IMG/VR virus record: IMGVR_UViG_3300021256_000058
Span: 117,823-181,822 of that record
Reading direction: 5' to 3' (one strand)
DNA length: 64,000 bases
Origin: a virus
Lineage: Duplodnaviria > Heunggongvirae > Uroviricota > Caudoviricetes
Both the position numbers and the translations under genes were made by a program. Positions 723 through 42,663 of the stretch are shown one piece after another; positions within the stretch are counted from its first letter, which is position 1; every line of letters starts with the position of its first letter. The notes beneath the pieces are model-generated. The model was given only the letters and a program-made list of their open reading frames with translations. It was not told where the DNA came from and made no database searches.

Positions 723-1379
723 ATGTCTTTATCAAGTAATGTTAGAGAATATAATGAGTTACTGTGGAAAATTCAAGACCAAAACAAACCTGTAACTGCC
801 ATTTTGCTCCCTAGCGATGAACTGTTGGGTGAAATTGACTTGGAGGGTCGTACTGCGATCCTCCCGGTCCTTGATCCCACTGACCCAACATTTTTAAGTG
901 TACAGCATGACCATTATGCGGAAACTGTTTACTTTAAATGTGCAAGATACTTTGATAATACTGACTTAGCTACTACTGTATGTATCATTCAGTATGTCAA
1001 TGCAAATGGGAAGCAAGGTATCTATCGGGTTCCTTTCTATGATGTAGTGACTTATAGGGATGAAAATATAATGCTCGTTCCTTGGTGTATTGATGGTCTT
1101 GTTACCGAAGCAATGGGCGAAATTCAATTTGCTATCAGATTTTATTTGATCGATCCGGAGAGTATTGCGGTACTCGCGGATGGAACTCATGATGTCGATA
1201 GAATGCGTTATTTGTACAATTTAAATACGCTCCCTCAGACTGCGAAGGTTAAATATGGTTTGGATGCGTTGAGTACAAATGAGGAAACAGATGTTCCGCC
1301 TTCTGTTGTTGAATATTTGCTGCAGAGAGTGCAGGATTTGGAAGACAATACAGATTTATGGTGGACTGATATGTTTTAA
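723..1379 (+). CDS. hypothetical protein of the structural module
   Basis: A 218-codon ORF preceded by the RBS aaaggagcaaaatatt. It contains no internal TAG and ends in TAA. Confidence 0.55.
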   Translation: MSLSSNVREYNELLWKIQDQNKPVTAILLPSDELLGEIDLEGRTAILPVLDPTDPTFLSVQHDHYAETVYFKCARYFDNTDLATTVCIIQYVNANGKQGIYRVPFYDVVTYRDENIMLVPWCIDGLVTEAMGEIQFAIRFYLIDPESIAVLADGTHDVDRMRYLYNLNTLPQTAKVKYGLDALSTNEETDVPPSVVEYLLQRVQDLEDNTDLWWTDMF

Positions 1380-1392
1380 TTAAGAGATTAAG

Positions 1393-1460
1393 GGGGATGC
1401 GTGAAGCTGGCTTTAATGCTGCCATTAGGCGGCGGTCCGCGCATCCCCATTTTCTTTTTA
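1393..1460 (+). terminator. stem-loop with 9-bp GC stem plus T-rich tail
   Basis: gggggatgcg...cgcatcccc forms a 9-bp stem around a roughly 38-nt loop, followed by attttcttttt. A second 6-bp hairpin gcgagc-gaa-gctcgc lies at about 1505-1520. Confidence 0.4.
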
Positions 1461-1590
1461 CCTTTTGGTATTATATTAAAATAAAAAATAAAAAATATAA
1501 GCGAGCGAGCGAAGCTCGCGAGAAAGGAGACCCACTCCGTGTCACTTTAGGTATGGTTGCCCTTGGATGGCAATCTAAATAACTAGGGGA

Positions 1591-2799
1591 TTGCCTCTTG
1601 CTCGGCAACGGCCGGGGGGGGTATCCGTTTCAAATGATGGAAAGATTGGCTAGTGTTATTATTTTGATGGCTCTGGATATTTATAGTTTGATAGTACAAT
1701 AACTAATGTCATTAGTTCTCTTAATGAAATTACTTTTAGTTTTTGGGCAAAACCTACAACTACTACAGGTATTTAGGGTATTTTTCTTATTCGCCAAGGT
1801 GCTTCCTCTCATTAGATAAACTTTACTAATACTGGTATTGTATATAGAGATGCGGCTCACTCATCTCAGACTACTATTGCTTACCCTGCGGCAGTACAAG
1901 ATATATGGACTCATTATCTTTTTAGTTATGCTCATGGTAATTGGATTGTTTATATAAATGCAGCTCTTATTACAAATTAGGGATATACTGGTACAACTCA
2001 TTTAAATGCTAATCTTAATGAAGTAAGAATAGGACGTGCGCAATCATCTTCAGGCAATATTTATTATACTGGATATATAAATGATTTTCGTATTTATAAC
2101 CATGCATTAGCTGCTGAAGAAGTCCGTTCAATAGTTGCTAATGGTTTAATGATTCATTATCCTCTTAATGGTATGCCAGGAGATAGTGACAATATTGAAT
2201 ACGATATTTCGGGTTATCATAATGATGCGGAAATTGTAGGTATTGGCAAACAAGGATTTATTAGTTCATTAGCTGCACCTAGATATGCACAATCTTATGC
2301 CGGGTTTAGTTTAACTAAATACATAAAAAATGCTGATGTAGCATATGACAGTGGAATATGGTCAATATCTTGTTGGGCTCGTAGTGCTGTGCAACCAAGT
2401 GCTTATGAATCTATTTTTTGTTTAGCGAAAGCTGATGGTGAAGATGCTAATAAAAAAGCTTGTATATGTTATTCACCAACAGCTAATACAATATGGTATG
2501 AACTTGAAAATAAGTCCGGTAATATAGCTGGTATATCATATACAAAATGGTATCATTTTGTAATGACTTGTGATGGGTCTACTGGTAAAGTTTATATTGA
2601 TAATGAATTAAAAGCTACTCAAACAGGAATTACAGTTAGAACAGGATGCCATAATTTAGGTATAGGCTGTAGAAGTGAAAATGACGCATTTACTACTGGC
2701 GTTAGACCATTTACTGCTGGCAATCTTTCCGATTTTAGATTTTATACAAAATGTTTAACGGCTGATGAAGTCAGCCAACTTTATAATATGGGTGTTTAA
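1591..2799 (+). CDS. tandem LamG/ConA-like jelly-roll domain protein; TAG read as sense
   Basis: One frame runs from the TAA at 1576 to the TAA at 2797-2799. Its only internal stops are TAG, for example at 1651, 1684 and 1774. It contains two LamG_3-type C-terminal signatures, FRIYNHALAAEEVRSI and FRFYTKCLTADEVSQLYNMGV. The start is uncertain; the TTG at 1591 has poor SD spacing. Confidence 0.5.
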
Positions 2800-2846
2800 T
2801 GCCCCTTCTTCGGGTTATTAACGCCCGGAGAGGAGGATAAACTCTT

Positions 2847-5309
2847 TTGAGTTTACAAATTTGGTTACCATTAAATGGGGATGCTCGTAATATTGGTATT
2901 AACGGGACGGTTCCTACAGCTTAGAATATTACTTATGAAAATAATGGTAAAATTGGGAAAACTGCTTATTTTAATGGTTCTGATAGTGGTATATTAATCC
3001 CAGGTTATTCATTGCCTTCTGGCTCTAGTGATTGGTCATTTGCTGCTTGGGTAAAACCTACCGATGCTATGAGTGGAGCCGCATGTTTTTTAATGAGTTG
3101 TCGTACTGCATCATCTAATGCAGGATATGCTATATTTCTTTATCCTCCTAGTAGAGTGACCATATATAATGGCGGTGGTGGAGGAGATTATTCAGAAACA
3201 GATATTATAGAATTAAATAAATGGCATCATGTTGCTTATAGTATTACTGGAGCAATAATAAAATTATATATAGATGGAATTTTAAAGTATACTGCTAACA
3301 GTGGTAATAATCATATACCAAATACTTATGGTATTGCAATTGGCGGAGCGCAAAATAGTGGAGGGAATGCTAATATTACAAATTAGCGATTTAAAGGTTA
3401 TATGCAAGATGTACGCATTTATAATAATGCGCTTTCAGAAATTGAAATTCAAGAATTAGCAAAAGGATTAATTTTACATTATCCTATGTCTGGAACACCA
3501 TATAGTAATTTAAATAGTATAAGAACTAATTAGTTACCTTCTGACTATCAAGAAGTTGAATACGTAGAAAATGATAAAGATGGTTTAGCTTATATTAATT
3601 TAGGTTTAAGTTTTCCTGATCCATATAATGGTGAGATTAAAATGATTGGGACCGTAGCTTGTTCTAATTTAACAGGAGCACGATAGTTATTTGCTGGTTT
3701 CGGACCAGGAAATAAAGGTAATTATTTAGAATTTTATTCTAATAATAAAATAGGTGTATTTAATGCTTACAGTGGCCCAGCATGTATAGAAAATCATCCT
3801 TATCATTTTGAGTTTGGTTTAAATGCTAGTAGAACTTATGTTAAAGCCAATGGGGTTACTAATACTAGTACTGGTGCTTAGAGTGGCTCATATTTTAATA
3901 GCGGTTATATGTTTACTTTTGCTGGAAGTACTGGCTAGGCAAAAAATATTCGTTTTTATCATACTATTGTATATGATAGTGACATAAAAGTAAGAGATCT
4001 ATACCCTTGTTATCGTATATCTGATAATAAAGTAGGATTTTATGATATTGTAAGTAACACTTTCTTTTAGAATGCTAATACTTCTAGTACGCCAGGTGAA
4101 TTAACTTGTGGCCCATTGGTAAAAAAAATACCTGATACTTATTTGCCATTAGAATATATTTAGAGTGATGGTTAGCAATATATTGATACTGGTTATATTC
4201 CAAATACTAATTCAGAAGTAAGAACTACATTAATGCATTTAAGTAATACTTCAAGTGCTAATTTTTTGTATGGTTCTAGAACTGGTAGTAGTGTTGGTGA
4301 ATTTTATTTCTTTATTTATCCTTAGTTAAATAGTGTCCATTATGGTTATTCAAATAGTGGTAATCGAAGTATTGGTACAATACCAAAATTAAAAGATAAT
4401 GTATTTACTATTTATCATAATAAAGGTTTTGTTATCGTTAATATGAATAATATTAAAGTTACTACAAATGTAACTAATGGAGCATTCACGGGTACTCGTC
4501 CTATGTTTTTATTCGCGATATAGAGTGGTACTACATGGGATGGCCAAAGAGGGCCAGAAAGGATTTATAATTTTGAAATTTTAGAATCTGGTATCCCAAG
4601 AAGAGATTTCCGCCCTTCTTTACGGAAATCTGATTCTGTTCCAGGCATGTATGATTTAGTAAATGATGTATTTTATATTAAAGGTGCTAATTCTACAGGT
4701 GAATTTACTTATGGGTATATTGCAAATGGAGCTAAAGAATGGGACATTTCTGGCCATGGCTACAATTTAACTGCGAATCAAGATTTATCATTATTTATAA
4801 AAGATAATTCTAAGCGTTATAATTATAATTATTTAACTGCTTCTGGGAAATATTTTACTACACCAACAATAGGTAGCGCATGGAGGACTGTATCTTTTTG
4901 GTTTTATCCAGTAATAGCCCCAGCAACTATGCAAGTATTATGGGCAGATTACGAATCTCATGCTGCTTGTGGTTTTTATCCTAATAGCAATACTTTATTA
5001 GTTTCAAGAGATAATTATAAACTTGTTTTTACAATTAATAATATTAGTACAACTAATTGGAATCATATTGTATTAATATATAATGAAAATAAAGAACCGA
5101 TTAAAGCTTATTGTAATAATATAGCTTTAACTGGAACTGCAAGTGGAAGTGGTAATTATTGGAGACATAATGCTCAAATTTTGGAAATTAATGGACGTGA
5201 AAATACTGGAGAAAGTAGTTTAGCTTATTAGATTTCTGATTTTAGAGTATATGCAATAGAATTATCTGATATTGAAATAGAAAAATTATATAATATGAAA
5301 AAAGCATAA
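2847..5309 (+). CDS. LamG-like receptor-binding/fibre protein of about 820 aa with at least 11 in-frame TAG
   Basis: A TTG start follows the RBS ggagaggagga. The N-terminus reads SLQIWLPLNGDARN, and the LamG signatures are VRIYNNALSEIEIQEL and FRVYAIELSDIEIEKLYNM. The whole 2.46 kb frame is interrupted only by TAG and ends in TAA at 5307-5309. Confidence 0.6.
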
Positions 5310-5315
5310 TTATAT

Positions 5316-5352
5316 TGGGAGAACCAAATTAATTGGTTTTCCCAATTTTTTA
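5316..5352 (+). terminator. hairpin plus T-run
   Basis: gggagaaccaa-attaa-ttggttttccc, with one G-U pair, followed by aatttttta. Confidence 0.45.
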
Positions 5353-5388
5353 TTATATTATAGAAATCTAAGAGAGGTGGTAAAATAA

Positions 5389-7806
5389 ATGTCTTTATAG
5401 GTTTGGTTGCCTCTTAATGGAAATGCTAATAATTATGGGCTTATTAAAGGTTCTATTACAAATAATGGGGTTACTTTTTCTGGAGCTGGGAAAATAGGAG
5501 TAAATAGTGTATTTGCAAATAATAAAAATGTTGTAATTACTGGAATTAATATTACTAAAAATGAATGGACAGTTGCTATTTGGGCAAAACATAATAACGC
5601 TACTGCGACAGATCCTAATATGCTGTTTTCTTGTGGCACTAATGGTAATTATACGCATACTCAATTTGCTTTACATTTATAGTCAGACAGTAAACATTAT
5701 TATGGTGTTGTTAATACTAATGCTTATGCTTCTTTTATTCCCATAGACAATATTGCAGAATGGCATCATATTGTAATGAGTTATGATGGACAAACTCTTA
5801 AAGCTTATTTAAATGGTTAGCTAGTAAATACTATTAATGAAAATTTAACACTATTCCAAGGAAATAAAATCAGTATAGGATCTTATTATGCAAATAGTAC
5901 ATCTACTAATTGGCATGGCGGGCTATAGGATTTCCGTGTGTATGACCATGTTCTTACAGATTCTGAAATTTGGCATTTAGCTAACCCAGAAGTATATCAT
6001 TATCATATGAATGATATTAATAATGGTTATAAAAATTATATTTATAAAAAATTACCTGATGAGTACTAGGAAGTTAAATATATTGAATCAACTGGTACAT
6101 AGTATATTAATACTAATTATACAAATGATACAGCAACATCTATTAGAATGAAATATAGATTTTCTGCAACTGAAGTAGGCGCTAATAAAGTAATTGTTGG
6201 CTCTGAAACATCAGGGCATCAATATACTGGAGCATTAGTGCTTAATGGTAATTTATATAGTGGTACATCTATAAGTTATTTTAACACTGGTACATTAACA
6301 GTCAATACTGATTATATATATGATTATTATAGTAGTAATTCTGAAGCATATGTATATAAAAATGGAGTAAAATTTACTAAAACAAGTAATTTAGGGGTTA
6401 ATTGTACTTATGCACCTTGTATTTTTGCTCATAATGCTGGTGGCACAATTAATTAGTATTCTAAATGTAAATTATATTCTTTTTAGTTATATGTTAATAA
6501 TGTTTTATAGCGTAATATGCGTCCTTGCTATCGCAAATCTGATAATAAGCCTGGTATGTATGATTTAACTAATGGGGTATTCTATACTAATGCTGGTTCT
6601 GGAGAATTTATATATGGGCCTATTATAAAAGCTTTGCCAAAAGAATATGTGCCAGTTGAATATTTATAGAGTACTGGTACACAATACTTAGATATGAATA
6701 TGAAGCGTAATTCTGTTAATTTCAGAATTATTGTAGAACAAGAATTTCCAACTTCAACTGGAGAAAGAGATGTAGCTGGTTCATATTCTTCTGGAGCTGC
6801 AGCTGGGGCATTAGTATGCGGTTAGGCCTATGATCCAGCTAAATTATTTATATATAATAAAAGTTACACAAATGCTTAGATAGCTCAACCTATTTTTATG
6901 CAAAATGTGAAACAATAGGTTGAATATGGCACAACAGCTTCATAGCATTATATCCAAATTGGAACGACTAAAGACTTCAAGGCAACTACTAATTTGCCCG
7001 CATCAGATACTAATAATCTTTTTATATTCGCAGGAGGGCCTTCTAATTATTCCAATGCAATAAATGTAAAGATCTATTCATTAGATATAATAGAAGATAA
7101 TATTTTAAAAAGAGCATTACGTCCTTGTTTACGTATTTCTGATAAAAAACCTGGTATGTATGATCTTGCAAATGATATATTTTATATTAATCAAGGTTCT
7201 GGTGAATTCGTATATGGTTCTTAGAATGAATTAATAAAAAATAATAATGCATGGGGACAAAACTATCAAGGGATCTTAAATATAAAAACAGTATAGAATA
7301 ATAATACTCCGCGGTATAGCTCAAGTACCTTTATTGGCACCCCAGCTCGCAATCCGATGCTCACTTTTGGAGAAAGTAGTACTACTAAAAATGCATTAAC
7401 AGATTGTACTGTCAGTTTTTGGATAAAGAAAAAAGCTAATGAAGAAAATATGGTTTTAGGGTCTGGTCCTTATATAGGGGCTATTTCTGGGTCTAAGTTT
7501 TATACTTAGAATGCTGGCACTACTATACAATTATATAAAGATGGAATAGAATATCCTATAACTTCTACTGAATCTAATAACGTACTTTATTTTAACGGTG
7601 CGGCTACGCCAGACACTAATTGGCATCATTTTTGTTTAACTCATGTTAATTTTTCAGCATGGAGTTCAATTATCATGAATAATTATGGTTCTGGCTCAAC
7701 ATGGGATACAAATTCTGATATTTCAGATTTTCGTATTTTTGCAACGGTTCTAACCGCAGATGACATTCAAAAGCTCTATGCTATGGGTCATCCGCCAACA
7801 ACATAA
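5389..7806 (+). CDS. LamG-like receptor-binding/fibre protein, paralog of 2847..5309, with about 16 in-frame TAG
   Basis: An ATG follows the RBS gagaggtgg. The N-terminus is M S L TAG V W L P L N G, parallel to SLQIWLPLNG in the paralog. LamG signatures are FRVYDHVLTDSEIWHL and FRIFATVLTADDIQKLYAMG. The frame is broken only by TAG and ends in TAA at 7804-7806. Confidence 0.6.
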
Positions 7807-7897
7807 GGCCAAATATATTTAATTATAATTTTACTTTTTTCAAATTCTTTGAAAGAGGTAAGATACCAATTTCACCTACATTATTTTAAACATATAT

Positions 7898-7930
7898 ATA
7901 GGGGAGAGGTATAACCTCTCCCCTATTTTT
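7898..7930 (+). terminator. rho-independent terminator
   Basis: A perfect hairpin ggggagaggt-ataa-cctctcccc is followed by a T7 run. A second hairpin, ccctcc...ggaggg, lies just downstream. Confidence 0.7.
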
Positions 7931-7993
7931 TTATTATATGCCCTCCACCTGCTAAGGCCCGGAGGGACTTTAGCAGAAAGGAGATGCTGAAGA

Positions 7994-10900
7994 TTGGCAC
8001 TCTTCAAAATAAGTCAAGGTAATAGTAGCAACCTCCCTACAAATTATCATAATGGATATTGTTACTTTACTATTGATGAAGGTAAGTTATATATCGACTT
8101 TCCTGGCACAGGAGAAGATCAATAGGTAGTAGATGGCGAAACTTTAATACGCCGTCCATTGAATGCGAACCGTGCGGACTTCGTTGGATACGCTCTTACG
8201 CTCGAGTTTGATGGCGATGCACAGCCTAACTATAATGGTTCTACTCCTCGAACCTATAATATTACTCCAGAAGCAATTAGTGCGGTCCGCCGTAACGGAG
8301 ATACTATTCCAGGTCCATTAACTCTTAATGGCGTGTTCACAGTGAATAATGACGCATACATTGACAGTGCAACTGTAGGCGATTTACTTATCAATGGCGG
8401 GACACGTTTCATCGGAGACGTGAATGCAGGTAAGATTACCGCGTCTAGCTTTGTCGGTCCTCTTACCGGGAACGCCACAAGCGCAGATAAAGTAAACCAT
8501 TATATATCAATTCAAATTAATGGTACAGAAAAAGCTCATTATGATGGTTCGGCTAACCAATCGGTTAACCTGACCGCCGAATCCCTTGGTTTACTTGGAA
8601 ACACTACTAAGTATGCTCTTGGCGATGCAGTAGGCGGTAATGCGGTAGCCGCAAATAAATTAACTGTCAATGCAGGTTCTTTAACTCGTCCAGTTTACTT
8701 CTCTGCTGGTGTACCAGTAGCAATAAGTAATACTGATGAAATTGACTTAATTGCTAAACAAGCAAATAGTGTAAAGGAAAATCTTATTATAGAAGCCAGA
8801 GACACTGAGTTATGGCGTTATAATGGTAGTATTTCCCGCACACTAAATCTTACTCCAAGTTTAATTGGAGCTTTCGATATTATAGAAGGTTCTACTGTCC
8901 AAGGCGAATCTATTTTTAATAATGTAGTTTACTTAAATGATGAAACATATGCTGACTCAATGACTATTGAGAATGCAATCGTCACAGGCGCGCTTCGTGT
9001 AGTTGGTGACTTAAATGGTTCTGTTATTAATGCAACTACATTTAATGGAAATTTGAACGGAAATGCAACATCAGCCAACAAAGTAAATCATTGGTTGAAA
9101 ATCCAATTCGATGGTACAGATAAAGCTCAATATGATGGATCGGGAGATAACAAAACTGTTAATATCACCCCAGCTGCTATTGGAGCTTTGTCTACTACAA
9201 CCAAATATGCTGCTTCCGCATCTGTTGGTGGCTCAGCTCTTAGTGCGGAAAAGCTTAATGCTAATGCTGGCGATGCTACGCACCCAATATATTTCGCAAA
9301 TGGTGTCCCGGTTCAAGTCTCTGGAACCTAGGCTATTAACGTTTCATCTGCGGATAAAGTAAATCATTCTTTGCGAGTTGATTTAGACGGTACCACCGCA
9401 GTCACTTATGATGGTGATACTGAAAATAAAAGTGTAGATATTACCCCAGAAGCAATCAATGCTCTCCGCAATACTACGAAATATGCCGGGTCTAACTCGG
9501 TCGGTGGAGCAGCGATTAGCGCAAATAAATTAAATACAAATGCGGGCGATGCTACACATCCAGTTTACTTTGCTAATGGTGTTCCGGTCCAGGTTTCTGG
9601 TACTTAGGCAATTAATGTAGCAAGTGCTGATAAATTAAATCATTATGTAAGTATTTCAGCCGATGGAACTGAAAAAATCCATTTTGATGGATAGAATAAT
9701 GATTCATTTGATATAACCCCAGAAATAATCAATGCAGTAAGACGTAATGGTGATACGATCCCAGGTCCTCTTACTTTGAACGGGGTATTCACTGTAAATA
9801 ATGATGCTTACATTGATAGTGCTACCATCGGTGACCTCTTGGTTAATGGCGGCACTAGATTCGTGGACGATGTGAATGCAGGAAAAATTACTGCAAACAA
9901 TTTTGTTGGCCCATTAACAGGTAATGCTACAAGTGCGGATAAGGTAAATCATTACGTATCTATTCAAATCAACGGAACTGAAAAGGTTCATTATGATGGT
10001 TCCGCGAATCAGTCAGTGAATTTAACTCCTGAGTCTCTTGGTTTGTTAGGTGCTACAACAAAATATGCACTTGGTGATGCTGTTGGTGGCAATGCGGTCA
10101 AGGCTAACGCGCTGAACGTGTCAGCGGCAATTGGTTCTACGACCCGCCCCGTATACATCCCATCATCTGGCGTTCCCGCAGTAATCAGCAATACCGCTGA
10201 AATTGATTTAATCGCTAAGAAGGCTAATAGCCTTAAAGAGAGTTATATCTATTCATTACGTGGCACTGAACAGTGGCGTTATGATGGTTCTACTCAGCGC
10301 ACTTTGGATATTACTCCAAATGACATGGGTATCTTCGATACACTCGAAGGATCTACTGTTCAAGGCGAATCTGTTTTCAATAACGTCGTATATTTGAACG
10401 ATGAAACTTATGCAGATTCAATGACTATTGAAAATGCTATTGTAACAGGGGCCCTACGTGTTGTAGGCGATCTTAATGGTAGCGTAATTAATGCGACTAC
10501 TTTTAACGGTAGTTTGAATGGCAATGCGACTAGTGCAAATAAAGTTAATCAAACTCTTACTATTGAATTAAATGGTACAGCGCAGCCATCATATGATGGT
10601 AGTATTGCCAGACGTATTGAAATTACTCCTGCTTCAATCGGCGCTTTGGCAAGTACCGCAAACTATGCAGGTAGCTCTTCAACAGGAGGACCTGCAACAA
10701 GCGCCCAAAAGCTGAACACTAATGCAGGTTCAGATATTTTGCCTGTCTACTTTACTGGCGGTGTACCCGCAGCAGTAAGTACATCAAAACAAATAAACAT
10801 TCTTGCTCGTGAGGCAAGTAAAACAACTTATAATTTAGCCATCGCTTTTGATGGCACTAATGCTGTCACTTTTGATGGTAGCACTCAAAATAAATCAATT

Positions 10901-25541: not shown

Positions 25542-26020
25542 TTTTGCTCCTTTAAATTAATAACTCTCTGATTAGTAGATCCACGCATCCAAAGGCTAAT
25601 ATCTCTCTGCTCTTGGATAAATGGCCCATCAATCAGTACATCTATCGTAGCTAAAATATCTTTTAAGCGAGGGCTACTATGATTTTGAAGCTCTTCATAC
25701 GTAAACCCTGTCCAAAGATAAATTTTTATATCTGGGTATTCTTCTCTTACCGCAGTTGCAACCATATAAGTAAGAAAAAGATTTTCTTCTGCTAATGGTT
25801 CTCCTCCCATAATGCAGAAATCTCTTTGAATACCATTGGCCTTTATACCATTAATAATTTCATTAATTGTATCTACTGTAAAAGTTTTTCCGCCGTCAAA
25901 GTCCCAAGTCTCTGGATTATGACATCCTGGGCAATGTCTGTGACATCCTTGGACGAAGAATGTCAAACAGACCCCAGGAGCTGCAGCAACATCGTTATAG
26001 ATTATGCCAGCGTATTTCAT
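25538..26020 (-). CDS. nrdG: anaerobic ribonucleotide reductase activating protein (radical SAM)
   Basis: Contains the Cys cluster FVQGCHRHCPGCHNPETW. Its ATG overlaps the nrdD TGA. Confidence 0.85.
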   Translation of the reverse strand: MKYAGIIYNDVAAAPGVCLTFFVQGCHRHCPGCHNPETWDFDGGKTFTVDTINEIINGIKANGIQRDFCIMGGEPLAEENLFLTYMVATAVREEYPDIKIYLWTGFTYEELQNHSSPRLKDILATIDVLIDGPFIQEQRDISLWMRGSTNQRVINLKEQK

Positions 26021-28293
26021 CGCATAATCCCCGTATGCTTGGTTCTTTCTTCAACTTCAGCTTGCTTTCCTTTATTAAAAGCAGTCTTATAGTTGCCTGT
26101 CAAATAACCAGTTACACGGCGGAGTTGCTGGATATTTTCACTACCACAAACTGGGCAATGGTCATTAAATTCACCAGTATAGCCGCAGTCAAGGCAGGTA
26201 TCATTTGGGACATTGATTGCAAAATATGGAATATCATGTTCCATAGCATAATTGACAATTTCTTCAACAGCATCAATATTGTTCAATACTGCACCATCAA
26301 GCTCCACATAAGTAATGCAACCACCATTAGAATAGCCAGTAAGCTGACTTTCAATGTCGATCTTCTCAAATGGAGACACTTCTTTCCATACAGGAACGTG
26401 CATTGAATTAGTGAAATACTCATGGTCAGAAACATTTTCAATTACACCATATTGCTCTTTAAACTTCTTCATAGCAGTATAGCAAAGATTCTCAGCAGGC
26501 GTATAATATACACCAAAGTTCAAACTATATTTCTTTTTGAATTCTGCGCAACGAGTATTAAACAATTGTTCAATATGTTTTGCAAGATTCATACCTTTAA
26601 CAGTAGTATGATCACATCCAATCAATAGCTGAAGAGCTTCGGCAAGGCCAAGTTGACCAATTACTAAAGTGCCGTGCTTAAGCGCGGAACGGATTCCCTC
26701 TTCAGGAATATAACCAGCCATTGTGCCATTTTCATACATGAATTTTGCACTTTCAGGGCTCTGGCTGCAAATCCATTCAAAACGCTCAATTAACATATCT
26801 CTTGCTTCTGCGATCTTCTGGTCAAGATATTTAAGGAAATGATCTTCAAGATTTGGATCACTAATACCATATTCATCAACTATTTGTTTTGCAAGAGTTG
26901 GAAGAATAATAGTAACAGGGCAAATATTACCACGACCATCTTTCTTAAAGCCCATACCATTAATATCGAAACCATTATAAGTTCTACAGCCCATCGTGCT
27001 TACATACTGTGTAGGATCATTTTTATCATATCCCGCATTTACTGACCAATCAACATTAGCGTAATTAGGATACAATCTCTTTGCGGTGCTTTCCAAAGCC
27101 ATGCGATAAAGATCATAGTTAGGAGTACCAGGTTTATCATTAACGCCTTTCATATACTGGAAAATACCACAAGGGAAAATAGAAGTTTTATGCAATTTAC
27201 CAAGTCCTTCAATAGAAACACTAAGGAGAGCCTTAGTTACCATTCTACCTTCTGGAAGCGTGCAAGTACCATAATTAATTGAAGTAAAAGGCAACTGATT
27301 GCCGCTACGGGATTGCAGAGTATTCAGATTATGATACATACCTTCTGCTGCCTGATGGACTTCTTTTTCAGTCATATCATAGGCATAACGATAAATATCT
27401 GCATCTTCTTTAAAATAATCATCTTCAATACCAAATTGCAAGCGTTTTGCATACCCAACTACTTCATTGATATTATGATCGTCAAGATTACCAATGTACT
27501 TGCATCCATCTGCATAATGTTTGTAGAATGATTTGCGGACATAGGGCACCATTGTCCAATCCAGATGAGTTGCACTTACTCCACCAAACTGCTGTAAACT
27601 TTGAAGCTGAAATAAAACTGCAACAAGCTGAAATGCAGTATTCACAGAACCGGCTGGCCGCACATCTGTCTGGCGAGTATTAAACCCATTAGCGAGCAAA
27701 TCATCTAATGGAAGACTTAGGCAATTATGGTCACCAACTGCATAATGATCTAAGTCATGAATGTAAATCATATTACCTTCATGGTTTGCTCTTGCCATGT
27801 CTGATACCAAATAATCAAGAGCATATTGTTTAGTCATATAACTTGTAGCTTCACCCATACGACCGCCAAATGAGTGTTCATCAATGTTAGCGTTCTGGTT
27901 CTGTACATTTCTTGCTTCGAGCTTCTCTCGAATTGGACGAATGAAATCGTCTTGTACATTACGAGCTACTTCTTTTTTATATCTATATCTAATATATGCG
28001 CGAGCCACATCACGGCGCTCTGAGCGCATCAAATAATCCTCAACCCAGTCTTGGATTAACTCTACTGGGATGGGAGCAACACTACCAATGACTTTTTTGC
28101 CAATTTCAAGCGCAATATCTGTTGCTGTATCGTTTTCATAAAGTTTTCCATCAACTTCAATGAAAGCCTTATTAATAGCATTAATAATTTTCTGCGCATC
28201 GAAGTTGACAGTTGAGCCATCACGCTTCAATACATGCATATAAATAAAACCTCCAAACCAAAATATTGTGTTAATTTTCGCGGACATCCACAA
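26017..28293 (-). CDS. nrdD: class III anaerobic ribonucleoside-triphosphate reductase
   Basis: 758 aa with an N-terminal ATP-cone (VLKRDGSTVNFDAQKI), a C-terminal Zn Cys cluster (CLDCGY...CPVCGS) and a glycyl-radical tail RVTGYL. Contains no TAG. Confidence 0.9.
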   Translation of the reverse strand: MWMSAKINTIFWFGGFIYMHVLKRDGSTVNFDAQKIINAINKAFIEVDGKLYENDTATDIALEIGKKVIGSVAPIPVELIQDWVEDYLMRSERRDVARAYIRYRYKKEVARNVQDDFIRPIREKLEARNVQNQNANIDEHSFGGRMGEATSYMTKQYALDYLVSDMARANHEGNMIYIHDLDHYAVGDHNCLSLPLDDLLANGFNTRQTDVRPAGSVNTAFQLVAVLFQLQSLQQFGGVSATHLDWTMVPYVRKSFYKHYADGCKYIGNLDDHNINEVVGYAKRLQFGIEDDYFKEDADIYRYAYDMTEKEVHQAAEGMYHNLNTLQSRSGNQLPFTSINYGTCTLPEGRMVTKALLSVSIEGLGKLHKTSIFPCGIFQYMKGVNDKPGTPNYDLYRMALESTAKRLYPNYANVDWSVNAGYDKNDPTQYVSTMGCRTYNGFDINGMGFKKDGRGNICPVTIILPTLAKQIVDEYGISDPNLEDHFLKYLDQKIAEARDMLIERFEWICSQSPESAKFMYENGTMAGYIPEEGIRSALKHGTLVIGQLGLAEALQLLIGCDHTTVKGMNLAKHIEQLFNTRCAEFKKKYSLNFGVYYTPAENLCYTAMKKFKEQYGVIENVSDHEYFTNSMHVPVWKEVSPFEKIDIESQLTGYSNGGCITYVELDGAVLNNIDAVEEIVNYAMEHDIPYFAINVPNDTCLDCGYTGEFNDHCPVCGSENIQQLRRVTGYLTGNYKTAFNKGKQAEVEERTKHTGIMR

Positions 28294-28311: not shown

Positions 28312-28902
28312 TTATTCTTTATCATTTTTCGTCCAAGCGCTGATCGCAGCCAGGACTTGTTCTACCGTTTCATCAAGCAATGCACCCGTACCATTCTGGA
28401 CTTCAACATGCTCAGGAAAACGATTATTTATCCATTTGAAGTCTTGTTCATCTGTGCCATAACGTCTAACGATTTCCGCACAGTCTGGATTCGTTTCACG
28501 CATTAGCTGGCGCAATAGCCTAATTTTATCATCAGCTACAATGTAAATAGGCAATACATCAATTGTAGGGTGCTCTATCAATAACTCCAACCCTTCTGGA
28601 TTCCATACGCCAATATTGATTTGATCGTATTTTAATTCATCAAGAGAGGTTCCATAACACCAGTCTCTAAATACTGTAGCTTCTAACATTCGATTATTCA
28701 ATACTAAATCAGTAAATTTTTCATTAGTAATAAAATGATAATCTACTCCGTCTTGTTCTCCCTCTCTCATGGGCCGAGTTGTACAAGAGACAATCTCATG
28801 GAAGCCGCCATTTGCAACGACTTCCTTAAGAATAGTATCTTTACCTGAACCGGCTTTTCCAAAGAGAGCGACTACCTTAATCTTCATCTTCTTCGCTCCC
28901 AT
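28312..28902 (-). CDS. P-loop deoxynucleoside monophosphate / nucleoside kinase
   Basis: Walker A motif ALFGKAGSGKDT in a 196-aa protein ending in TGA. Confidence 0.55.
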   Translation of the reverse strand: MGAKKMKIKVVALFGKAGSGKDTILKEVVANGGFHEIVSCTTRPMREGEQDGVDYHFITNEKFTDLVLNNRMLEATVFRDWCYGTSLDELKYDQINIGVWNPEGLELLIEHPTIDVLPIYIVADDKIRLLRQLMRETNPDCAEIVRRYGTDEQDFKWINNRFPEHVEVQNGTGALLDETVEQVLAAISAWTKNDKE

Positions 28903-31900
28903 AATATCTACTACTTCGTAATATTAATGTTCCATCCGGACTTACTTCATCAATTTTATACAGTTGATGTCCTCCTTGTGACTGATATTTCTTCGCCACA
29001 AAGTCATCCTCATTTCGCATTCCATTGACAACAATCATACTTCCTCTTGAAAACCAAGAGTTCTCAACAACATGCTTTACGCCATCGTCGCCAATTTGAG
29101 AAATTCTCTTATCAAACATACTGAAATGTTCTTTGCGGAATTTGACATTTACAACTCCATCAACTGTCAACAAAGAAACTGTACTCTTCGTTTTATTCTT
29201 GCCTAATACGGTTCCACAAATCTTTGACAACTGGAACATTTTACCGCCATTACCGAATCTTTTTGCAATTACTGGTTCTTTTGGTAAATCAAAGAAATTA
29301 ACGAAACCATATTTTTCATTTTGGACATGAGCTAATTCATGCTCATGATAATAAAAACATAATGAATCCATCTCCCAAGAAGAGAGATTACCTTTTGCGT
29401 ATTTATTCCAATCTTCCGTGAATATTAAGTTATTCAATTTATCAAGAATCGCTTGCTTATCTGCCGCAATCCAATTTCTGAATACATCCATCCACTTCTG
29501 ATAAATCTTATCCCAATCAGCTAATAAAATAAAATATCTTGTTGCATCTGCCATTACCAAATTCTCATAACCAATTTCAGTCAAGAAATCAATTGCGCGT
29601 TCATCAACTCGATACATAATTTTATCAAATGCACACTTTGCTTTGAGATAACGATTAAACTCATAAATACGTCTTGCCATTACTCTTTCTTCCGTGTCTT
29701 CTGGCAACAAACCATATTTCATTAAGCTTGGAAGATTTTGTAAAGTCAAATTCGATTTTTTATCACAGGTCTCCCATATATACCACGCCATCACAAAACG
29801 ACGATCATACATATCATCAAAAGCTCCGCCTTTAATCAATGAAACCATCGCCTGCTTTTGTGGTTTTACTTTATAATAAAAATCTTTCGGAGAAGTATAT
29901 GGACGTTTCTCAATAATTTTTGCTACCAATTCATCGCCCACATTTACCATACCTTTTAATCCAAAAAGAATCCTATTATTTTTTGCATCTGGAATAAACC
30001 CATAATCGGATTCATTTATATTAACAATACTAACATCAATGCCTGCAGACCGCACATCTCCGATCGCCTTCGCGATTTTCGCATAATCTGTTGCTTTCCC
30101 TGCTTCTGGGTCTGTGGCTCCACTATTAACGATTAAACAAGCCGTATTCCAATATACCGGACTAAAATTAATCGCTAAATAAATCATCTGAACTCCAACA
30201 AATGAATATGGCAATGAATGATTCTTACTAAACGCATATCCCAATGATGGAGCTACTGCAACTTCCCAGATATAACTTGCATAAAGATTGTTTGCTACTT
30301 TTTCATACAATTGTTTGCGCAATTCTGGGATTTTTTTCATCTGTTTCTTTGCAACAATCTTACGTGCGGCATTCGCTTCACCGAGCGTAAAACCTGCAAT
30401 ATTTTCATCCATAAGAATTTCCATCATTTGTTCTTGAAGTGGAACTGTCCCATAATATGCATCACAATGCTGATGAAACGCTGCTTTCTGCGCTTCTGTT
30501 AACTCATGAGCATCCATTTCATCTTCAAACATTTCTGGATTATTCTTAATTCTTACATATCTATCTTGTGGAGACTCTTTACCTTTTTCCGCCATCAAAC
30601 GCATCAACGCTGAAGCTGCGGTCATTTCCAAAATATTCTGCGGTCTAAGTTTCTTCGCGATCATCAAACCAACACCTGTCGCAAACTGGAATATATCAAG
30701 AACATCACCATTCCCAAGATGATCCCAAATTCTCTGATCGCTTAAATCCATTACTTCTGGGTGAAGATATTGATTATAAAACTCACGCAAACTAATATCT
30801 GGAATTTCGCCATCACGCTTTAACAATTCATAACACTGAATAATCTTATCACTTGCTTCTGTCAACAGAAAGTCATACTTTGTATCTCCTGCTGCTTCTG
30901 CTTCATGCAGATCAAAACAAGTAATCAAATCTCCACTTGGAGTTCGCATTACACTTGCCGTATCATATGGCTCGCCCGCATACAAAATTACACCACTTGC
31001 ATGTGAGCTGCGTTTATTGACAAGACCGCAAATATATGTTATGATATCCAATAGACCTGGATAACGATTTACTTCATTAATAAATACTGTTACCGGTTGA
31101 CGACCACGCTCTTCATTTCCATGAACAACATCATCAATATCCCACAAAAATCCACGTTCTTGCGGAATCAATGATGACATATATAACGCATCATCATTAT
31201 TAATTCCATCTGGATATTCATCACTTCTATATCCACGACATGCTGTTTGAATCGCACTTTTCGTGCCTTCGGTTCCAAAAGTTGCTACCTGAACTAATCC
31301 AAACTCTCCACGCTCTTTACGAATTGCATCAAAGATTGCTGGACGTTTTGATGGAGCCAGGTCAATATCAATATCAGGCAATTCCGCACGTTCTTTATTC
31401 AAGAAACGCCAATATGGTAACTGCCAACGGATCGGATCAAGCTGAGTAATACCCAAAAGATAATTAGACAAGAAACCTGTTGCACTTCCTCGTCCCGGTC
31501 CTACGATTGAACCGCACTCCCAGAACAAATCAATGTAATGTTTGAATGTGTTAAAATACGCAAACAAACAGTCATGAAGCTTCTCCCCAATGTAACTAAC
31601 TACATCAGCCTCAGTCTCAATCCGTTCAACATATTCAGTTTTTCCATCCAAACCTTTTTCGCATAATGCCTTTAAGACTTCATTAATCCAATATCTTTCT
31701 TGAATATTATCACTATCTAACAATCTACTAATTGTTGGATACTGTTCATATTTACCTGCGTTTTGTTTTGGATAATCAGTTACATCTACTTTTGGAATAA
31801 TTTGAGTTTTCTCCAGACTAAACCATGAGATTTTATTCTGGAGTTCCATCGTATTTTCAAAAATCCAATCAACAACAGAATCATCTTCAAAAGATGCATT

Positions 31901-32737
31901 TAAAAGCTCTCGGCATTCATCTGCATCCATTAATCTCGCAAATTCATAAAATGCATCTACTTCTCTTGATCCACTGTCTTTATCATCTTTTGAAGTTAAA
32001 TATGCCTTATGAATCGGCCTATCTGCTGCTGTTAAATAATGTGCATCAGTTCCTACTACCATCGGAATATTATAATACCTTGCAATACTTAATAATTTCT
32101 TATTAACCATTACTTGATCTTTTGAAGTCGACGGCGCGCACTCAATATAAAAATCATCACCAAATATATCTTGAACAAATTCAATAAAACTAATGATGTT
32201 ATTATAAAATTTCTGCGCGAGAACTGTATCACCTTTTGCCATCGCAAGTTCCATACCTTGAGCTGATTTTGAAAGTTCTCCACCAATACATGCTGAAGTC
32301 GCAATAACATGGCCTTTATATTTCGCCATTATTTCTTTCAATTCAGACTTTAGAGTTGGAACTCTGTCCATCTTTTGGGCATTATACATATTAAACCAAG
32401 CTGTTGAACTTAATTCTCTCAATGCACGATACCCAATCTCATCTTTCGCAATAACAATAAAGTGAAAATAATGCTGCTTTTGCGGGCTGCGCTCTTCAAT
32501 CAAATAAATCTCATTACCCAGCGCAATCGTAAAATCAGGATATTTTTCACGATATTCTTTTGCAATCTTATTAACTTCCATATGAGCTGACAGACATTCG
32601 TGATCTGTAATTGCTATACCTGTCAGTCCCAATTCGATCGCTTTATCTATCAACTCTTTAGGACGATTAATGCAATCAAGTAACCTAATATTTGAATACA
32701 TTGTATGATTATGACAATTAAAATATTTTGTTACCAT
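28877..32737 (-). CDS. dnaE: DNA polymerase III alpha subunit-type replicase (family C, N-terminal PHP domain)
   Basis: 1,286 aa. The N-terminal PHP signature is NCHNHTMYS..GIAITDHE, and the core is polIII alpha-like. It has zero TAG and ends in TAA. Confidence 0.8.
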   Translation of the reverse strand: MVTKYFNCHNHTMYSNIRLLDCINRPKELIDKAIELGLTGIAITDHECLSAHMEVNKIAKEYREKYPDFTIALGNEIYLIEERSPQKQHYFHFIVIAKDEIGYRALRELSSTAWFNMYNAQKMDRVPTLKSELKEIMAKYKGHVIATSACIGGELSKSAQGMELAMAKGDTVLAQKFYNNIISFIEFVQDIFGDDFYIECAPSTSKDQVMVNKKLLSIARYYNIPMVVGTDAHYLTAADRPIHKAYLTSKDDKDSGSREVDAFYEFARLMDADECRELLNASFEDDSVVDWIFENTMELQNKISWFSLEKTQIIPKVDVTDYPKQNAGKYEQYPTISRLLDSDNIQERYWINEVLKALCEKGLDGKTEYVERIETEADVVSYIGEKLHDCLFAYFNTFKHYIDLFWECGSIVGPGRGSATGFLSNYLLGITQLDPIRWQLPYWRFLNKERAELPDIDIDLAPSKRPAIFDAIRKERGEFGLVQVATFGTEGTKSAIQTACRGYRSDEYPDGINNDDALYMSSLIPQERGFLWDIDDVVHGNEERGRQPVTVFINEVNRYPGLLDIITYICGLVNKRSSHASGVILYAGEPYDTASVMRTPSGDLITCFDLHEAEAAGDTKYDFLLTEASDKIIQCYELLKRDGEIPDISLREFYNQYLHPEVMDLSDQRIWDHLGNGDVLDIFQFATGVGLMIAKKLRPQNILEMTAASALMRLMAEKGKESPQDRYVRIKNNPEMFEDEMDAHELTEAQKAAFHQHCDAYYGTVPLQEQMMEILMDENIAGFTLGEANAARKIVAKKQMKKIPELRKQLYEKVANNLYASYIWEVAVAPSLGYAFSKNHSLPYSFVGVQMIYLAINFSPVYWNTACLIVNSGATDPEAGKATDYAKIAKAIGDVRSAGIDVSIVNINESDYGFIPDAKNNRILFGLKGMVNVGDELVAKIIEKRPYTSPKDFYYKVKPQKQAMVSLIKGGAFDDMYDRRFVMAWYIWETCDKKSNLTLQNLPSLMKYGLLPEDTEERVMARRIYEFNRYLKAKCAFDKIMYRVDERAIDFLTEIGYENLVMADATRYFILLADWDKIYQKWMDVFRNWIAADKQAILDKLNNLIFTEDWNKYAKGNLSSWEMDSLCFYYHEHELAHVQNEKYGFVNFFDLPKEPVIAKRFGNGGKMFQLSKICGTVLGKNKTKSTVSLLTVDGVVNVKFRKEHFSMFDKRISQIGDDGVKHVVENSWFSRGSMIVVNGMRNEDDFVAKKYQSQGGHQLYKIDEVSPDGTLILRSSRYYGSEEDED

Positions 32738-42650: not shown

Positions 42651-42663
42651 AATTTCTCCCTTA

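What the first reader, a model, noticed from the sequence alone, without database searches (positions are those of the whole stretch)
1591..7806. Three consecutive genes form a family of LamG-array proteins with a shared N-terminus and a recurrent 35-aa motif
All three genes carry LamG_3-type jelly-roll domains recognisable by the C-terminal D..R(I/V)YNRALS..E(I/V)..LY signature. I count six copies, at about 2100, 2790, 3450, 5270, 5990 and 7790. Genes 2 and 3 start with near-identical peptides, SLQ(I/V)WLPLNG. Both also repeat the motif R..RPC.R.SD.KPGMYDL.N..FY.N.GSGEF.YG four times, near 4010, 4600, 6520 and 7120. Each motif copy follows a LP.EY..VEY(I/L).S.G.QYI.T module. This looks like a diversifiable receptor-binding or adhesin set.
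Basis: partly seen in the sequence, partly recalled or inferred. Interest (0 to 1): 0.55.

Follow-up and report, generated by a model that had tools for sequence, protein, structure and literature searches.

The report
Swappable lectin-fold adhesin genes, rumen phage
Three neighbouring late genes of a large rumen phage that reads TAG as glutamine encode proteins built only from sugar-binding-type (LamG) jelly-roll domains; different strains carry different sets of these genes, and one gene sits behind a run of G's whose length varies, so this is most likely the phage's exchangeable host-adhesion kit.

Summary
With TAG read as Gln there are three genes: g1 1539-2799, g2 2847-5309 and g3 5389-7806. 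Each carries two Pfam Laminin_G_3 domains, six in total. The 35-aa motif occurs four times.

Three corrections:
- g1 starts at GTG 1539, not 1591, and has the same N-terminus, MSLqVWLPLDG. A run of 8 G (1614-1621) puts it out of frame. Other assemblies carry G9 (off), G10 (on) or GGTG7 (on).
- The locus is a replaceable cassette. Strains with ≥93% identical flanks carry two, three or at least five different LamG/X genes.

The genes lie next to a ~2,500-aa tail fibre and a holin. Virion-borne, glycan-binding adhesins are the best reading, but this is inferred, not shown. The fold and the strategy are known. The X family and this combination of features are undescribed.

The parts
1539..2799 (+). 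g1: N-terminal strand plus LamG plus LamG (419 aa if one G is removed). It is out of frame in this window.
   Evidence: The start is GTG 1539 with an AGGAG ribosome-binding site. The frame breaks at the G8 run. Pfam Laminin_G_3 matches two stretches, E 2e-31. The intact equivalent is seen in L032, L035 and L037.
1614..1621 (+). Poly-G tract (G8) inside codons 26-28 of g1. This is a candidate contingency (phase-variable) site.
   Evidence: It is the only G or C run of 7 or more in the 64 kb; 0.03 are expected by composition. The alleles seen are G8 here and in L029, G9 in L030, L031 and L036, G10 in L035 and L037, and GGTG7 in L032. Only the 10-nt versions are in frame.
2847..5309 (+). g2 (820 aa, 12 TAG): LamG 2847-3482, X1 3534-4118, X2 4128-4721, LamG 4722-5306.
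   Evidence: Pfam Laminin_G_3 matches two stretches, E 5e-30. The X HMM domains are residues 230-424 and 428-625. The start is TTG with a GGAGAGGAGG ribosome-binding site.
5314..5354 (+). Intrinsic-terminator-like hairpin plus T run after g2.
   Evidence: 14-bp stem followed by TTTTTATTAT.
5389..7806 (+). g3 (805 aa, 17 TAG): LamG 5389-6003, X1 6052-6624, X2 6634-7224, LamG 7225-7803.
   Evidence: Pfam Laminin_G_3 matches two stretches, E 1e-22. The X HMM domains are residues 222-412 and 416-612. The source contig's own gene call gives the same 805-aa product.
1665..7801 (+). Strain-variable cassette region, replaced as a block or in parts in related phages.
   Evidence: Homology to related contigs ends at 1405, 1664-1673 or 2228 and resumes at 7802-7805. 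GC is 0.31 here, against 0.40 upstream and 0.37 downstream.
723..1379 (+). Conserved upstream flank gene (218 aa, no family match).
   Evidence: The identical protein is found on contigs with different cassettes. It has no PHROG or Pfam hit.
7898..7934 (+). Terminator-like hairpin after g3, inside the conserved right flank.
   Evidence: 13-bp stem followed by a T run. This flank is 97% identical in L032.
7994..15484 (+). Conserved downstream flank: a giant repetitive tail-fibre-like protein (~2,496 aa, TAG-recoded).
   Evidence: Translation. Internal repeats of ~1.19 kb. It is 90-95% identical in L034.

Best explanation
The locus is the exchangeable host-adhesion module of a large (at least 172 kb) TAG-to-Gln recoded phage of rumen Firmicutes.

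It encodes late proteins made only of concanavalin-A-like/LamG jelly rolls. Two kinds are present: canonical Laminin_G_3 domains and a divergent, so far unannotated ~190-aa 'X' domain. In X, the conserved N- and C-terminal segments (LP.EY..VEYIESTGTQYIDTG and PCYRKSDN.PGMYD.V...FYTN.GTG.F) frame a variable middle.

Inferred mechanism. The proteins are assembled onto the tail tip or fibre region. There they bind host cell-envelope glycans through the variable loops of several lectin domains acting together. Specificity is changed in two ways. First, recombination in the conserved flanks and at domain borders swaps whole genes or domains between strains. Second, slippage in a G8-10 tract three codons before the first LamG core switches g1 on or off. 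TAG codons, including codon 4 of g1 and g3, confine translation to the late phase, when suppression is active.

Shown: gene structures, domain families, fold, family size, strain-to-strain cassette replacement, tract-length polymorphism and gene context.
Inferred: virion incorporation, glycan binding, a role in host range, reversibility of the G-tract switch, and the regulatory role of TAG.
For: - Code-15 reading frames, with TAG on conserved Gln columns.
- Six Laminin_G_3 domains.
- The LamG parts hit PHROGs annotated 'virion structural protein': phrog_8510 at E 1e-21, also phrog_26670 and phrog_6011.
- BFVD hits are uncharacterised gut Siphoviridae and Myoviridae proteins, ConA-like proteins, tail fibre proteins and minor tail proteins.
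- Context: + strand late block, giant fibre at 7994-15484, DUF285/LRR protein, holin at 19212-19646. There is no signal peptide (sequence).
- Homologues lie beside Mtd_N tail-fibre proteins, in a 239-kb phage-like contig next to another LamG protein, and in a prophage near a terminase.
- Cassette replacement occurs between conserved flanks in five other contigs.
- G-tract alleles are 8, 9, 10 and GGTG7. The frame is intact only at 10 nt. The tract is unique in the window.
- Precedents exist: hypermutable polyG tracts in Campylobacter phage receptor-binding genes (Sorensen 2021, cited in PMC10877375) and phage contingency loci (PMC12633550).
Against: - No homologue has an experimentally known function. 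All source names are 'hypothetical protein', and there is no solved structure by sequence.
- No separate virion-attachment domain is visible. The conserved N-terminus is just the leading LamG strand.
- The full-length model of a homologue left the N-terminus and the LamG domains at low confidence, so domain packing and oligomeric state are unknown.
- The window's own X modules could not be modelled, because the tool rejects TAG=Q translations. The fold was shown on a homologue 42% identical to g3 X1.
- X domains also occur in giant, apparently cellular proteins of bacterial and archaeal MAGs. The domain is therefore a general adhesion module, not a phage-specific one.
- G-tract lengths come from consensus assemblies, and homopolymer miscalls cannot be excluded. 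Both G8 and G9 are 'off', which also fits a decaying gene.
Confidence: 0.6

Rival explanations
1. The proteins are virion decorations that stick the phage to the environment rather than to the host receptor. Targets could be plant-fibre polysaccharides, mucus or biofilm matrix in the rumen. This would raise encounter rates, as in the 'adherence to mucus' idea proposed for Ig-like capsid decorations.
For: The lectin folds are generic. X domains also occur in giant cell-surface-type proteins of gut bacteria and archaea. A separate, conserved giant fibre and LRR proteins could be the true receptor binders. The family is strongly enriched in gut and rumen samples.
Against: Strain-level cassette turnover and a frameshift switch are typical of arms-race loci that face a variable host surface. 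The genes sit in the tail-fibre and lysis end of the late block, not beside capsid genes.
Confidence: 0.15
2. The jelly rolls are catalytic. On this reading the proteins are polysaccharide lyases or hydrolases (depolymerases) of the ConA-like clan, such as GH16 or PL7, that degrade capsule or wall polymers.
Confidence: 0.07
3. g1 is simply a pseudogene in this strain, and the G-tract length differences are assembly or sequencing noise or neutral drift. There is no regulated switch.
For: Four of the seven contigs that carry the tract are out of frame, with two different off lengths (G8 and G9). All the data are consensus assemblies. The paralogues g2 and g3 could make g1 dispensable.
Against: Downstream of the tract the g1 frame is otherwise intact over about 390 codons, with no TAA or TGA, and it is identical in several samples. 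In-frame alleles exist in closely related strains. A G8-10 run is highly improbable by chance at 17% G, and it is the only such run in 64 kb. Its position just after the start is typical of contingency loci.
Confidence: 0.3
4. Diversity is generated by a diversity-generating retroelement (DGR) acting on these genes, as with Bordetella phage Mtd.
For: A homologue's neighbours carry Mtd_N domains.
Against: The 64-kb window has no template/variable repeat pair. The only long repeats are the 60-75% identical fibre repeats and the motif itself. The paralogues are only 28-32% identical. The domains are LamG, not the C-type-lectin fold that DGRs target.
Confidence: 0.02

Closest known systems
Pfam PF13385 Laminin_G_3 (concanavalin A-like lectin/glucanase superfamily) domains in phage virion proteins (PHROGs 8510, 26670, 6011, 'virion structural protein')
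   Same: The six terminal domains of g1-g3 score far above the Pfam cut-off (81-110 bits against 27.6). They also match these PHROGs.
   Different: Those PHROG proteins are long multi-domain proteins in which LamG is one part. Here the whole protein is a chain of jelly rolls, and the central X domains match no PHROG.
LamG/LNS/pentraxin fold: laminin alpha2 LG5 (1QU0), PAPP-A LamG modules (8HGG), neurexin LNS, and Bacteroides ovatus BACOVA_03559 putative carbohydrate-binding protein (4DQA)
   Different: Sequence identity is only 9-16%. Only 2 of 50 X domains give even a weak Pfam LamG_3 hit. Profile-profile comparison with the locus's own LamG domains gives only 27% probability. X has its own strongly conserved terminal motifs.
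Phage CBA120 tailspike TSP2 (5W6P/6W4Q) and other tail fibres or spikes with lectin-like jelly-roll modules
   Different: TSP2 is a trimeric beta-helix depolymerase with N-terminal attachment domains. No beta-helix, attachment domain or enzyme domain is detected here.
Hypermutable polyG tracts in Campylobacter phage receptor-binding genes (Sorensen et al. 2021, Cell Rep 35:109214, cited in PMC10877375); phage contingency loci in T2/T4 (PMC12633550)
   Same: A G homopolymer lies inside the 5' part of a putative adhesin gene. Its length differs between populations and sets the reading frame.
   Different: The phage lineage and host phylum are different, and the genome is TAG-recoded. Switching has not been observed within a population here.
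TAG-to-Gln (code 15) recoded gut phages, e.g. the phAss-1/'Phassvirus' group (PMC10607447) and crAss-like phages (PMC9523058)
   Same: Late and structural genes carry in-frame TAG while replication genes largely do not. phAss-1 is the nearest named phage for the DnaE-type polymerase (39%) and for NrdD (41%). That paper also notes tail-fibre locus differences between relatives.
   Different: The relationship is only distant. No DNA-level match exists to any of 50,697 phage records. phAss-1 fibres are described with pectate-lyase domains, not LamG/X arrays.

Membership tests
Pfam PF13385 Laminin_G_3 | HMM score above the curated gathering threshold (27.6 bits) | tested here: met
   g1 scores 109.5 bits, g2 105.0 and g3 81.1, with two matched stretches in each.
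Pfam PF13385 Laminin_G_3 | Jelly-roll (ConA-like) three-dimensional fold of these six domains | tested here: inconclusive
   Only a homologue (P0083) could be modelled. Its LamG parts had a shallow alignment and low pLDDT, although beta strands were predicted. The fold is inferred from the strong Pfam match.
LamG/ConA-like fold superfamily (for the X domain) | Structural superposition on LamG/pentraxin domains | tested here: met
LamG/ConA-like fold superfamily (for the X domain) | Detectable sequence homology to LamG families | tested here: not met
   Pfam gives no hit on g2 or g3 X regions. Only 2 of 50 X domains give a weak LamG_3 hit, best E 8e-4. hhalign probability is 27%. NCBIfam gives none and PHROGs 0 of 50.
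Phage receptor-binding / tail-fibre proteins | Encoded in the tail-fibre/lysis end of the late structural block | tested here: met
   The genes lie between unknown late genes and a ~2,496-aa fibre, an LRR/DUF285 protein and a holin. All are on the + strand and TAG-recoded.
Phage receptor-binding / tail-fibre proteins | Similarity to a protein with experimentally shown receptor binding, or an identifiable virion-attachment domain | tested here: not met
   There are no annotated homologues. The PDB gives no hit by sequence. The N-terminus is a LamG strand.
Phage receptor-binding / tail-fibre proteins | Presence in the virion and binding to the host surface | not testable with these tools
   This needs proteomics and binding assays.
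Phage receptor-binding / tail-fibre proteins | Strain-level mosaicism with conserved flanks | tested here: met
   Five related contigs carry different cassette sets between flanks that are at least 90% identical.
Contingency (phase-variable) locus | Simple-sequence tract inside the coding region whose length sets the frame | tested here: met
   A G8 run lies at codons 26-28. Lengths 7 or 10 are in frame; 8 and 9 are out of frame.
Contingency (phase-variable) locus | Length polymorphism between independent populations | tested here: met
   G8 is found in 1 sample, G9 in 3, G10 in 2 and GGTG7 in 1.
Contingency (phase-variable) locus | Reversible switching or heterogeneity within a population | not testable with these tools
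   Only consensus contigs are available, not reads.
Genetic code 15 (TAG = Gln) phage | In-frame TAG in long ORFs, at positions where homologues have Gln | tested here: met
   The three genes hold 36 TAG codons. TAG lies on the invariant Q17 column of X and on the Q of MSLQ.
Genetic code 15 (TAG = Gln) phage | Suppressor tRNA(CUA) | tested here: not met
   ARAGORN finds no tRNA in the 64-kb window. The rest of the 172-kb contig was not examined.
Diversity-generating retroelement target | Template/variable repeat pair and a reverse transcriptase nearby | tested here: not met
   The window has no near-identical repeat pair.

The most novel reading that the evidence does not exclude
The ~190-aa X domain is a very large lectin-fold family that has escaped annotation. 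It matches more than 27,000 50%-identity clusters at E ≤ 1e-10 and forms arrays of up to 15 copies in proteins of up to 7,600 aa. On this reading it is a principal specificity module of gut and rumen phage adhesins and of giant surface proteins of gut bacteria and archaea. In this phage it is used in a cassette array whose first gene is gated by a hypermutable G tract. That would give a TAG-recoded Firmicutes phage a bet-hedging, multi-lectin adhesin repertoire.
Probability: 0.35. Interest if true: 0.6.

Novelty: new variant of a known kind. Interest (0 to 1): 0.45.

Why it matters
Host recognition is the least predictable part of uncultured gut and rumen phages. This locus offers three concrete handles on it.

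1. It defines a domain family. X has clear boundaries, conserved frame motifs and a confident LamG-like model. The main annotation libraries lack it, yet it is present in tens of thousands of protein clusters. A model for it would annotate many 'hypothetical' phage tail proteins and giant microbial surface proteins.
2. It is a natural example of cassette exchange, with mapped breakpoints at gene and domain borders. That can guide host-range prediction or engineering.
3. It is a candidate polyG contingency switch outside Campylobacter phages and T-even phages, and in a recoded phage. If real, this widens the known reach of phase variation in phage adsorption genes.

Tried and rejected
- crAss-like phage was my first guess from the TAG recoding and strand layout. 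I dropped it: NrdD is 68% identical to Thomasclavelia phages, and the DnaE-type polymerase is 39% identical to phAss-1, Enterococcus and SPbeta-like phages.
- DNA-level relatives among 50,697 phage records: none. A protein search with g3 found only a weak LamG match in Vibrio phage VH7D.
- Searching IMG/VR with the upstream 218-aa gene gave nothing. Searching with g3 returned only distant X-domain proteins (24-41% identity) in phages of mixed genetic codes, and no orthologous locus. Orthologous loci came instead from exact-protein look-ups and from a DNA pattern around the G tract.
- The window's own X modules could not be modelled. The structure tool refuses TAG=Q translations, and the aligner refuses DNA references that contain TAG. 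A homologous domain was modelled instead.
- A full-length model was made to place the N-terminal strand and see the domain packing. The LamG and N-terminal parts were too low in confidence to use.
- The AFDB fold library was unavailable.
- Sequence homology between X and LamG was tested with hhalign. The result was weak (27%), so only fold-level kinship is claimed.
- DGR was rejected, because no template/variable repeats exist.
- Domain-by-domain shuffling of X1 and X2 between positions was tested. X1-X1 identity (34%) and X2-X2 identity (32%) are slightly higher than X1-X2 (27%). This points to inheritance of the LamG-X-X-LamG unit as a whole rather than free shuffling.
- The upstream 510-aa and 218-aa genes were searched for baseplate or attachment signatures. 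None was found.
- Literature searches for the motif strings found no paper.
Full report
**1. What is in the sequence**

Under the standard bacterial code, 1500-8000 holds only short ORFs. Counting stops per frame shows long stretches free of TAA and TGA but rich in TAG. With TAG as a sense codon three genes appear on the + strand:
- g1: GTG 1539 to TAA 2799
- g2: TTG 2847 to 5309, 820 aa, 12 TAG
- g3: ATG 5389 to 7806, 805 aa, 17 TAG

Each start codon follows a Shine-Dalgarno-like AGGAG/GGAGG at normal spacing.

TAG stands for Gln. In g3 X1 it lies on the invariant Gln of ESTGTQY. In g1 and g3 it is codon 4 of MSLqVWLPL, where g2 uses CAA and distant homologues have Q. TAG (17) is used about as often as CAA (15) in g3.

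Across the window, TAG-containing genes are concentrated in the + strand block 1539-18883. Most − strand genes (NrdD, DnaE-type polymerase and others) have none. No tRNA is found in the window.

**2.

- The six LamG C-terminal signatures start at 2083, 2731, 3408, 5238, 5929 and 7726.
- The four P(C/S).R.SD..G.YD...F(Y/F) motifs start at 4005, 4614, 6523 and 7123.
- The four LP.EY..VEYI modules start at 3534, 4128/4143, 6052 and 6634.
- Pfam Laminin_G_3 matches two stretches in each protein, with E 2e-31, 5e-30 and 1e-22.

Three details needed correcting.

(i) The start of g1. Upstream in another frame, GTG 1539 opens MSLqVWLPLDGNLNNqGIASCSATAGG. This is the same N-terminus as g2 and g3. The frame is lost in a run of eight G at 1614-1621, and removing one G joins it to the LamG body.

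(ii) Paralogue divergence. The paralogues are old: g1, g2 and g3 are 28-32% identical. At the DNA level only the motif region is recognisably repeated, at 64-76%.

(iii) 'Module plus motif' is one domain (section 3).

**3. The X domain**

An HMM built from the four window copies (about 190-198 aa each) finds 2-8 complete copies in nearly all of the 120 best homologues of g3. Most of these cover only the central half of g3 and have no Pfam annotation.

The common architectures are pure arrays (XX to XXXXXXX). LamG-X-X-LamG also recurs (P0083, P0022, P0005, P0057).

A 50-sequence alignment shows highly conserved ends and a variable middle. The N-terminal consensus is LP..Y..VEYIESTGTQYIDTG. The C-terminal consensus is LVRDF.PCYRKSDN..G.YD.V...FYTN.GTG.F.

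A profile search of 1.84 billion cluster representatives finds 34,129 proteins at E ≤ 1e-3, 27,176 at E ≤ 1e-10 and 10,668 at E ≤ 1e-30. Some proteins of up to 7,647 aa hold up to 15 matched stretches.

No annotation library covers X:
- Pfam-A has nothing on g2 or g3, and only 2 of 50 domains give a weak LamG_3 hit.
- NCBIfam has nothing.
- PHROGs match 0 of 50.
- The PDB gives nothing significant by sequence.
- Source names are all 'hypothetical protein'.
- The motif strings occur in no paper of the library.

The tools would not accept TAG=Q translations of the window. I therefore modelled a family member that is 42% identical to g3 X1, using the alignment. The model has pLDDT 84.4 and pTM 0.83, is all-beta, and its conserved ends reach pLDDT 95-98.

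BFVD returns uncharacterised gut Siphoviridae and Myoviridae proteins first. ConA-like proteins, tail fibre proteins and minor tail proteins follow.

Profile-profile comparison of X with the locus's own LamG domains is weak: 27% probability, although topologically equivalent strands align. I therefore call X a LamG-like jelly roll by fold, not a demonstrable Laminin_G_3 member. On this count g2 and g3 each hold four jelly rolls and g1 holds two.

**4. Where the window comes from, and its neighbours**

The window is identical to part of a 172,581-bp ENA contig from a sheep-rumen metagenome (L029/L033). It has no DNA-level relative among phage isolates.

NrdD is 68% identical to Thomasclavelia phages TR-TP1 and TR-TP2. 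The DnaE-type polymerase is about 39% identical to phAss-1, Enterococcus and SPbeta-like phages. This points to a large Firmicutes phage. phAss-1 is itself TAG-recoded (PMC10607447).

Gene order around the locus:
- Upstream on the contig: a 2,659-aa LRR_5 protein, then 65-aa, 510-aa and 218-aa proteins without family matches.
- Downstream: a ~2,496-aa repetitive fibre-like protein (7994-15484), a 1,108-aa DUF285/LRR protein, a 112-aa ORF and a holin at 19212-19646.

Terminator-like hairpins follow g2 and g3. The proteins have no signal peptide.

Homologues sit in phage contexts:
- P0083 (MALKVWLPLNG…, LamG-X-X-LamG) lies in a 239-kb contig beside another LamG protein and phage-type ligase genes.
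- P0004 (six X domains) lies beside Mtd_N proteins.
- An X protein lies in a prophage near a terminase.

X also occurs in giant proteins of MAGs: more than 4,195 aa in a Clostridia MAG and more than 2,926 aa, with five X domains, in a Methanomassiliicoccaceae MAG. The domain is therefore a general adhesion-type module of gut microbes and their phages.

**5. The locus is a replaceable cassette**

Exact look-ups of the TAG-free part of g1 and of the upstream 218-aa protein, plus a pattern search around the G tract, recovered related contigs from other samples. Domain scans under code 15 give these architectures (L = LamG, X = X domain):

| Contig | Cassette genes |
|---|---|
| window | [L-L, frameshifted] [L-X-X-L] [L-X-X-L] |
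| L032 | [L-X-X-L] [L-L-?-L] |
| L034 | [L-?-L] [L] [L-L-L] |
| L035 | [L-L] [L-X-X-L] [L-L-L] [L-L-L] [L-L-?-L…] |
| L036 | g1 with the same first LamG and a different second one |

Nucleotide homology to the window ends at 1405 (L034, intergenic). It ends at 1664-1673 (L032, L035, L037), about 45 codons into g1. It ends at 2228 (L036), close to the LamG1/LamG2 border. It resumes at 7802-7805, the stop codon of g3, at 90-97% identity.

The variable interval has GC 0.31, against 0.40 upstream and 0.37 downstream. X1 and X2 are slightly more similar to their positional counterparts in other proteins than to each other (34% and 32% against 27%). The four-domain unit therefore tends to move as a whole. 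There is no DGR-type repeat pair in the window.

**6. The shared N-terminus**

Every cassette gene in every strain starts with M-(S/A)-L-x-h-(W/Y/H)-h-P-h-x-G. So do distant homologues (P0101, P0111, P0100, P0083). Two start this way and then run straight into an X domain (P0072, P0068).

The same motif recurs internally about 20 residues after the first LamG signature in 8 of 13 cassette proteins. Examples are GLMIHYPLNG, GLILHYPMSG and HQLQLYLPFNGNSNNQ. It lies just before the region covered by the Pfam model, which starts at residue ~43.

I read it as the leading strand of a LamG module, not as a dedicated virion adaptor. How these proteins would dock to the particle is therefore open.

**7. 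The G tract**

G8 is the only G or C run of 7 or more in the 64 kb; 0.03 are expected by composition.

| Allele | Contigs | Reading frame |
|---|---|---|
| G8 | window/L029 | off |
| G9 | L030, L031, L036 (three samples; L036 has flanking SNPs) | off |
| G10 | L035, L037 | on |
| GGTGGGGGGG | L032 | on |

Apart from this site, g1 is intact.

The pattern matches the hypermutable polyG tracts of Campylobacter phage receptor-binding genes (Sorensen 2021, cited in PMC10877375) and the phage contingency loci reported for T2 and T4 (PMC12633550). Consensus assemblies cannot show switching within a population, so a fixed pseudogene or homopolymer miscalls remain possible (rival, 0.3).

**8. Interpretation**

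Best-supported reading, at about 0.6: late-expressed, virion-associated, multivalent lectin-fold adhesins. Their specificity is renewed by cassette and domain exchange, and one member is gated by a slippery G tract.

Shown: gene models, code, domain families, fold of X, family size, context, cassette replacement and tract polymorphism.

Inferred: virion location, glycan binding, effect on host range, reversibility of the switch, and the idea that an early TAG (codon 4) keeps the genes silent until suppression is active.

Rivals:
- environmental adherence rather than receptor binding (0.15)
- catalytic depolymerases (0.07)
- DGR targeting (0.02)

**9. Novelty**

LamG-type domains in phage structural proteins, mosaic tail-fibre loci, polyG switches and code-15 late genes are each known. 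New here are three things: the definition of X as a very large, unannotated LamG-like family; the all-jelly-roll LamG-X-X-LamG architecture; and their combination with a variable G tract in a recoded rumen phage. I rate this a new variant of a known kind, of moderate interest (0.45).

Noticed in passing
window 1614-1621: A G8 homopolymer frameshifts g1. Its length differs between assemblies from other samples: G8, G9, G10 and GGTG7. It is the only G or C run of 7 or more in the 64 kb.
   Followed up: yes
window 7994-15484: A giant (~2,496 aa) TAG-recoded fibre-like protein made of four to five ~1.19-kb internal repeats that are 60-75% identical. Its C-terminal part contains ...GAAWNDYAEFR..., which I recall, untested, as resembling tail-fibre intramolecular-chaperone ends. 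Pfam and PHROGs gave no significant hit. It is conserved at 90-95% in a strain whose LamG cassettes differ.
   Followed up: partly
window 15557-18883: A 1,108-aa TAG-recoded protein with a DUF285 (BspA-like leucine-rich repeat) match and four repeated ~100-aa 'TYxxxxxxxxIYxYHR' modules. The contig also encodes a 2,659-aa LRR_5 protein upstream of the window. The late block therefore carries several different adhesin types.
   Followed up: partly
window 42661-43653 (-) and 20355-20858 (-): Two minus-strand ORFs carry many in-frame TAG codons (11 and 6), whereas nearly all other minus-strand genes have 0-2. They may be recoded genes outside the main late block.
   Followed up: no
window 1-64000: No tRNA gene, and in particular no suppressor tRNA(CUA), is found in the window despite heavy TAG recoding. 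The source contig is 172,581 bp, so the gene may lie elsewhere.
   Followed up: partly
window 26017-28287 (-) and 28877-32737 (-): The anaerobic ribonucleotide reductase NrdD is 68% identical to Thomasclavelia phages TR-TP1 and TR-TP2. The DnaE-type polymerase is ~39% identical to phAss-1, Enterococcus and SPbeta-like phages. This hints at an Erysipelotrichaceae or other Firmicutes host.
   Followed up: partly
L043 1-12588; L065 3793-12573: X domains also sit inside giant proteins on MAG contigs: more than 4,195 aa in a Clostridia MAG (721-kb contig) and more than 2,926 aa, with five X copies, in a Methanomassiliicoccaceae archaeon MAG. The domain is not restricted to phages, or these contigs are mis-binned.
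   Followed up: partly
loci L007-L028 (IMG/VR): Phage contigs that encode X-domain proteins appear to use different codes. Some gain ORF length mainly under TAG recoding (L008, L010, L013, L014, L022). Others gain mainly under TGA recoding (L007, L009). GC ranges from 0.28 to 0.60.
   Followed up: no
window 1393-1460: A GC-rich hairpin (GGGGGATGCG…CGCATCCCC) followed by TTTTCTTTTT lies between the 218-aa gene and g1. It looks like a terminator, so g1 probably begins a new transcription unit. The simple scan did not list it.
   Followed up: no
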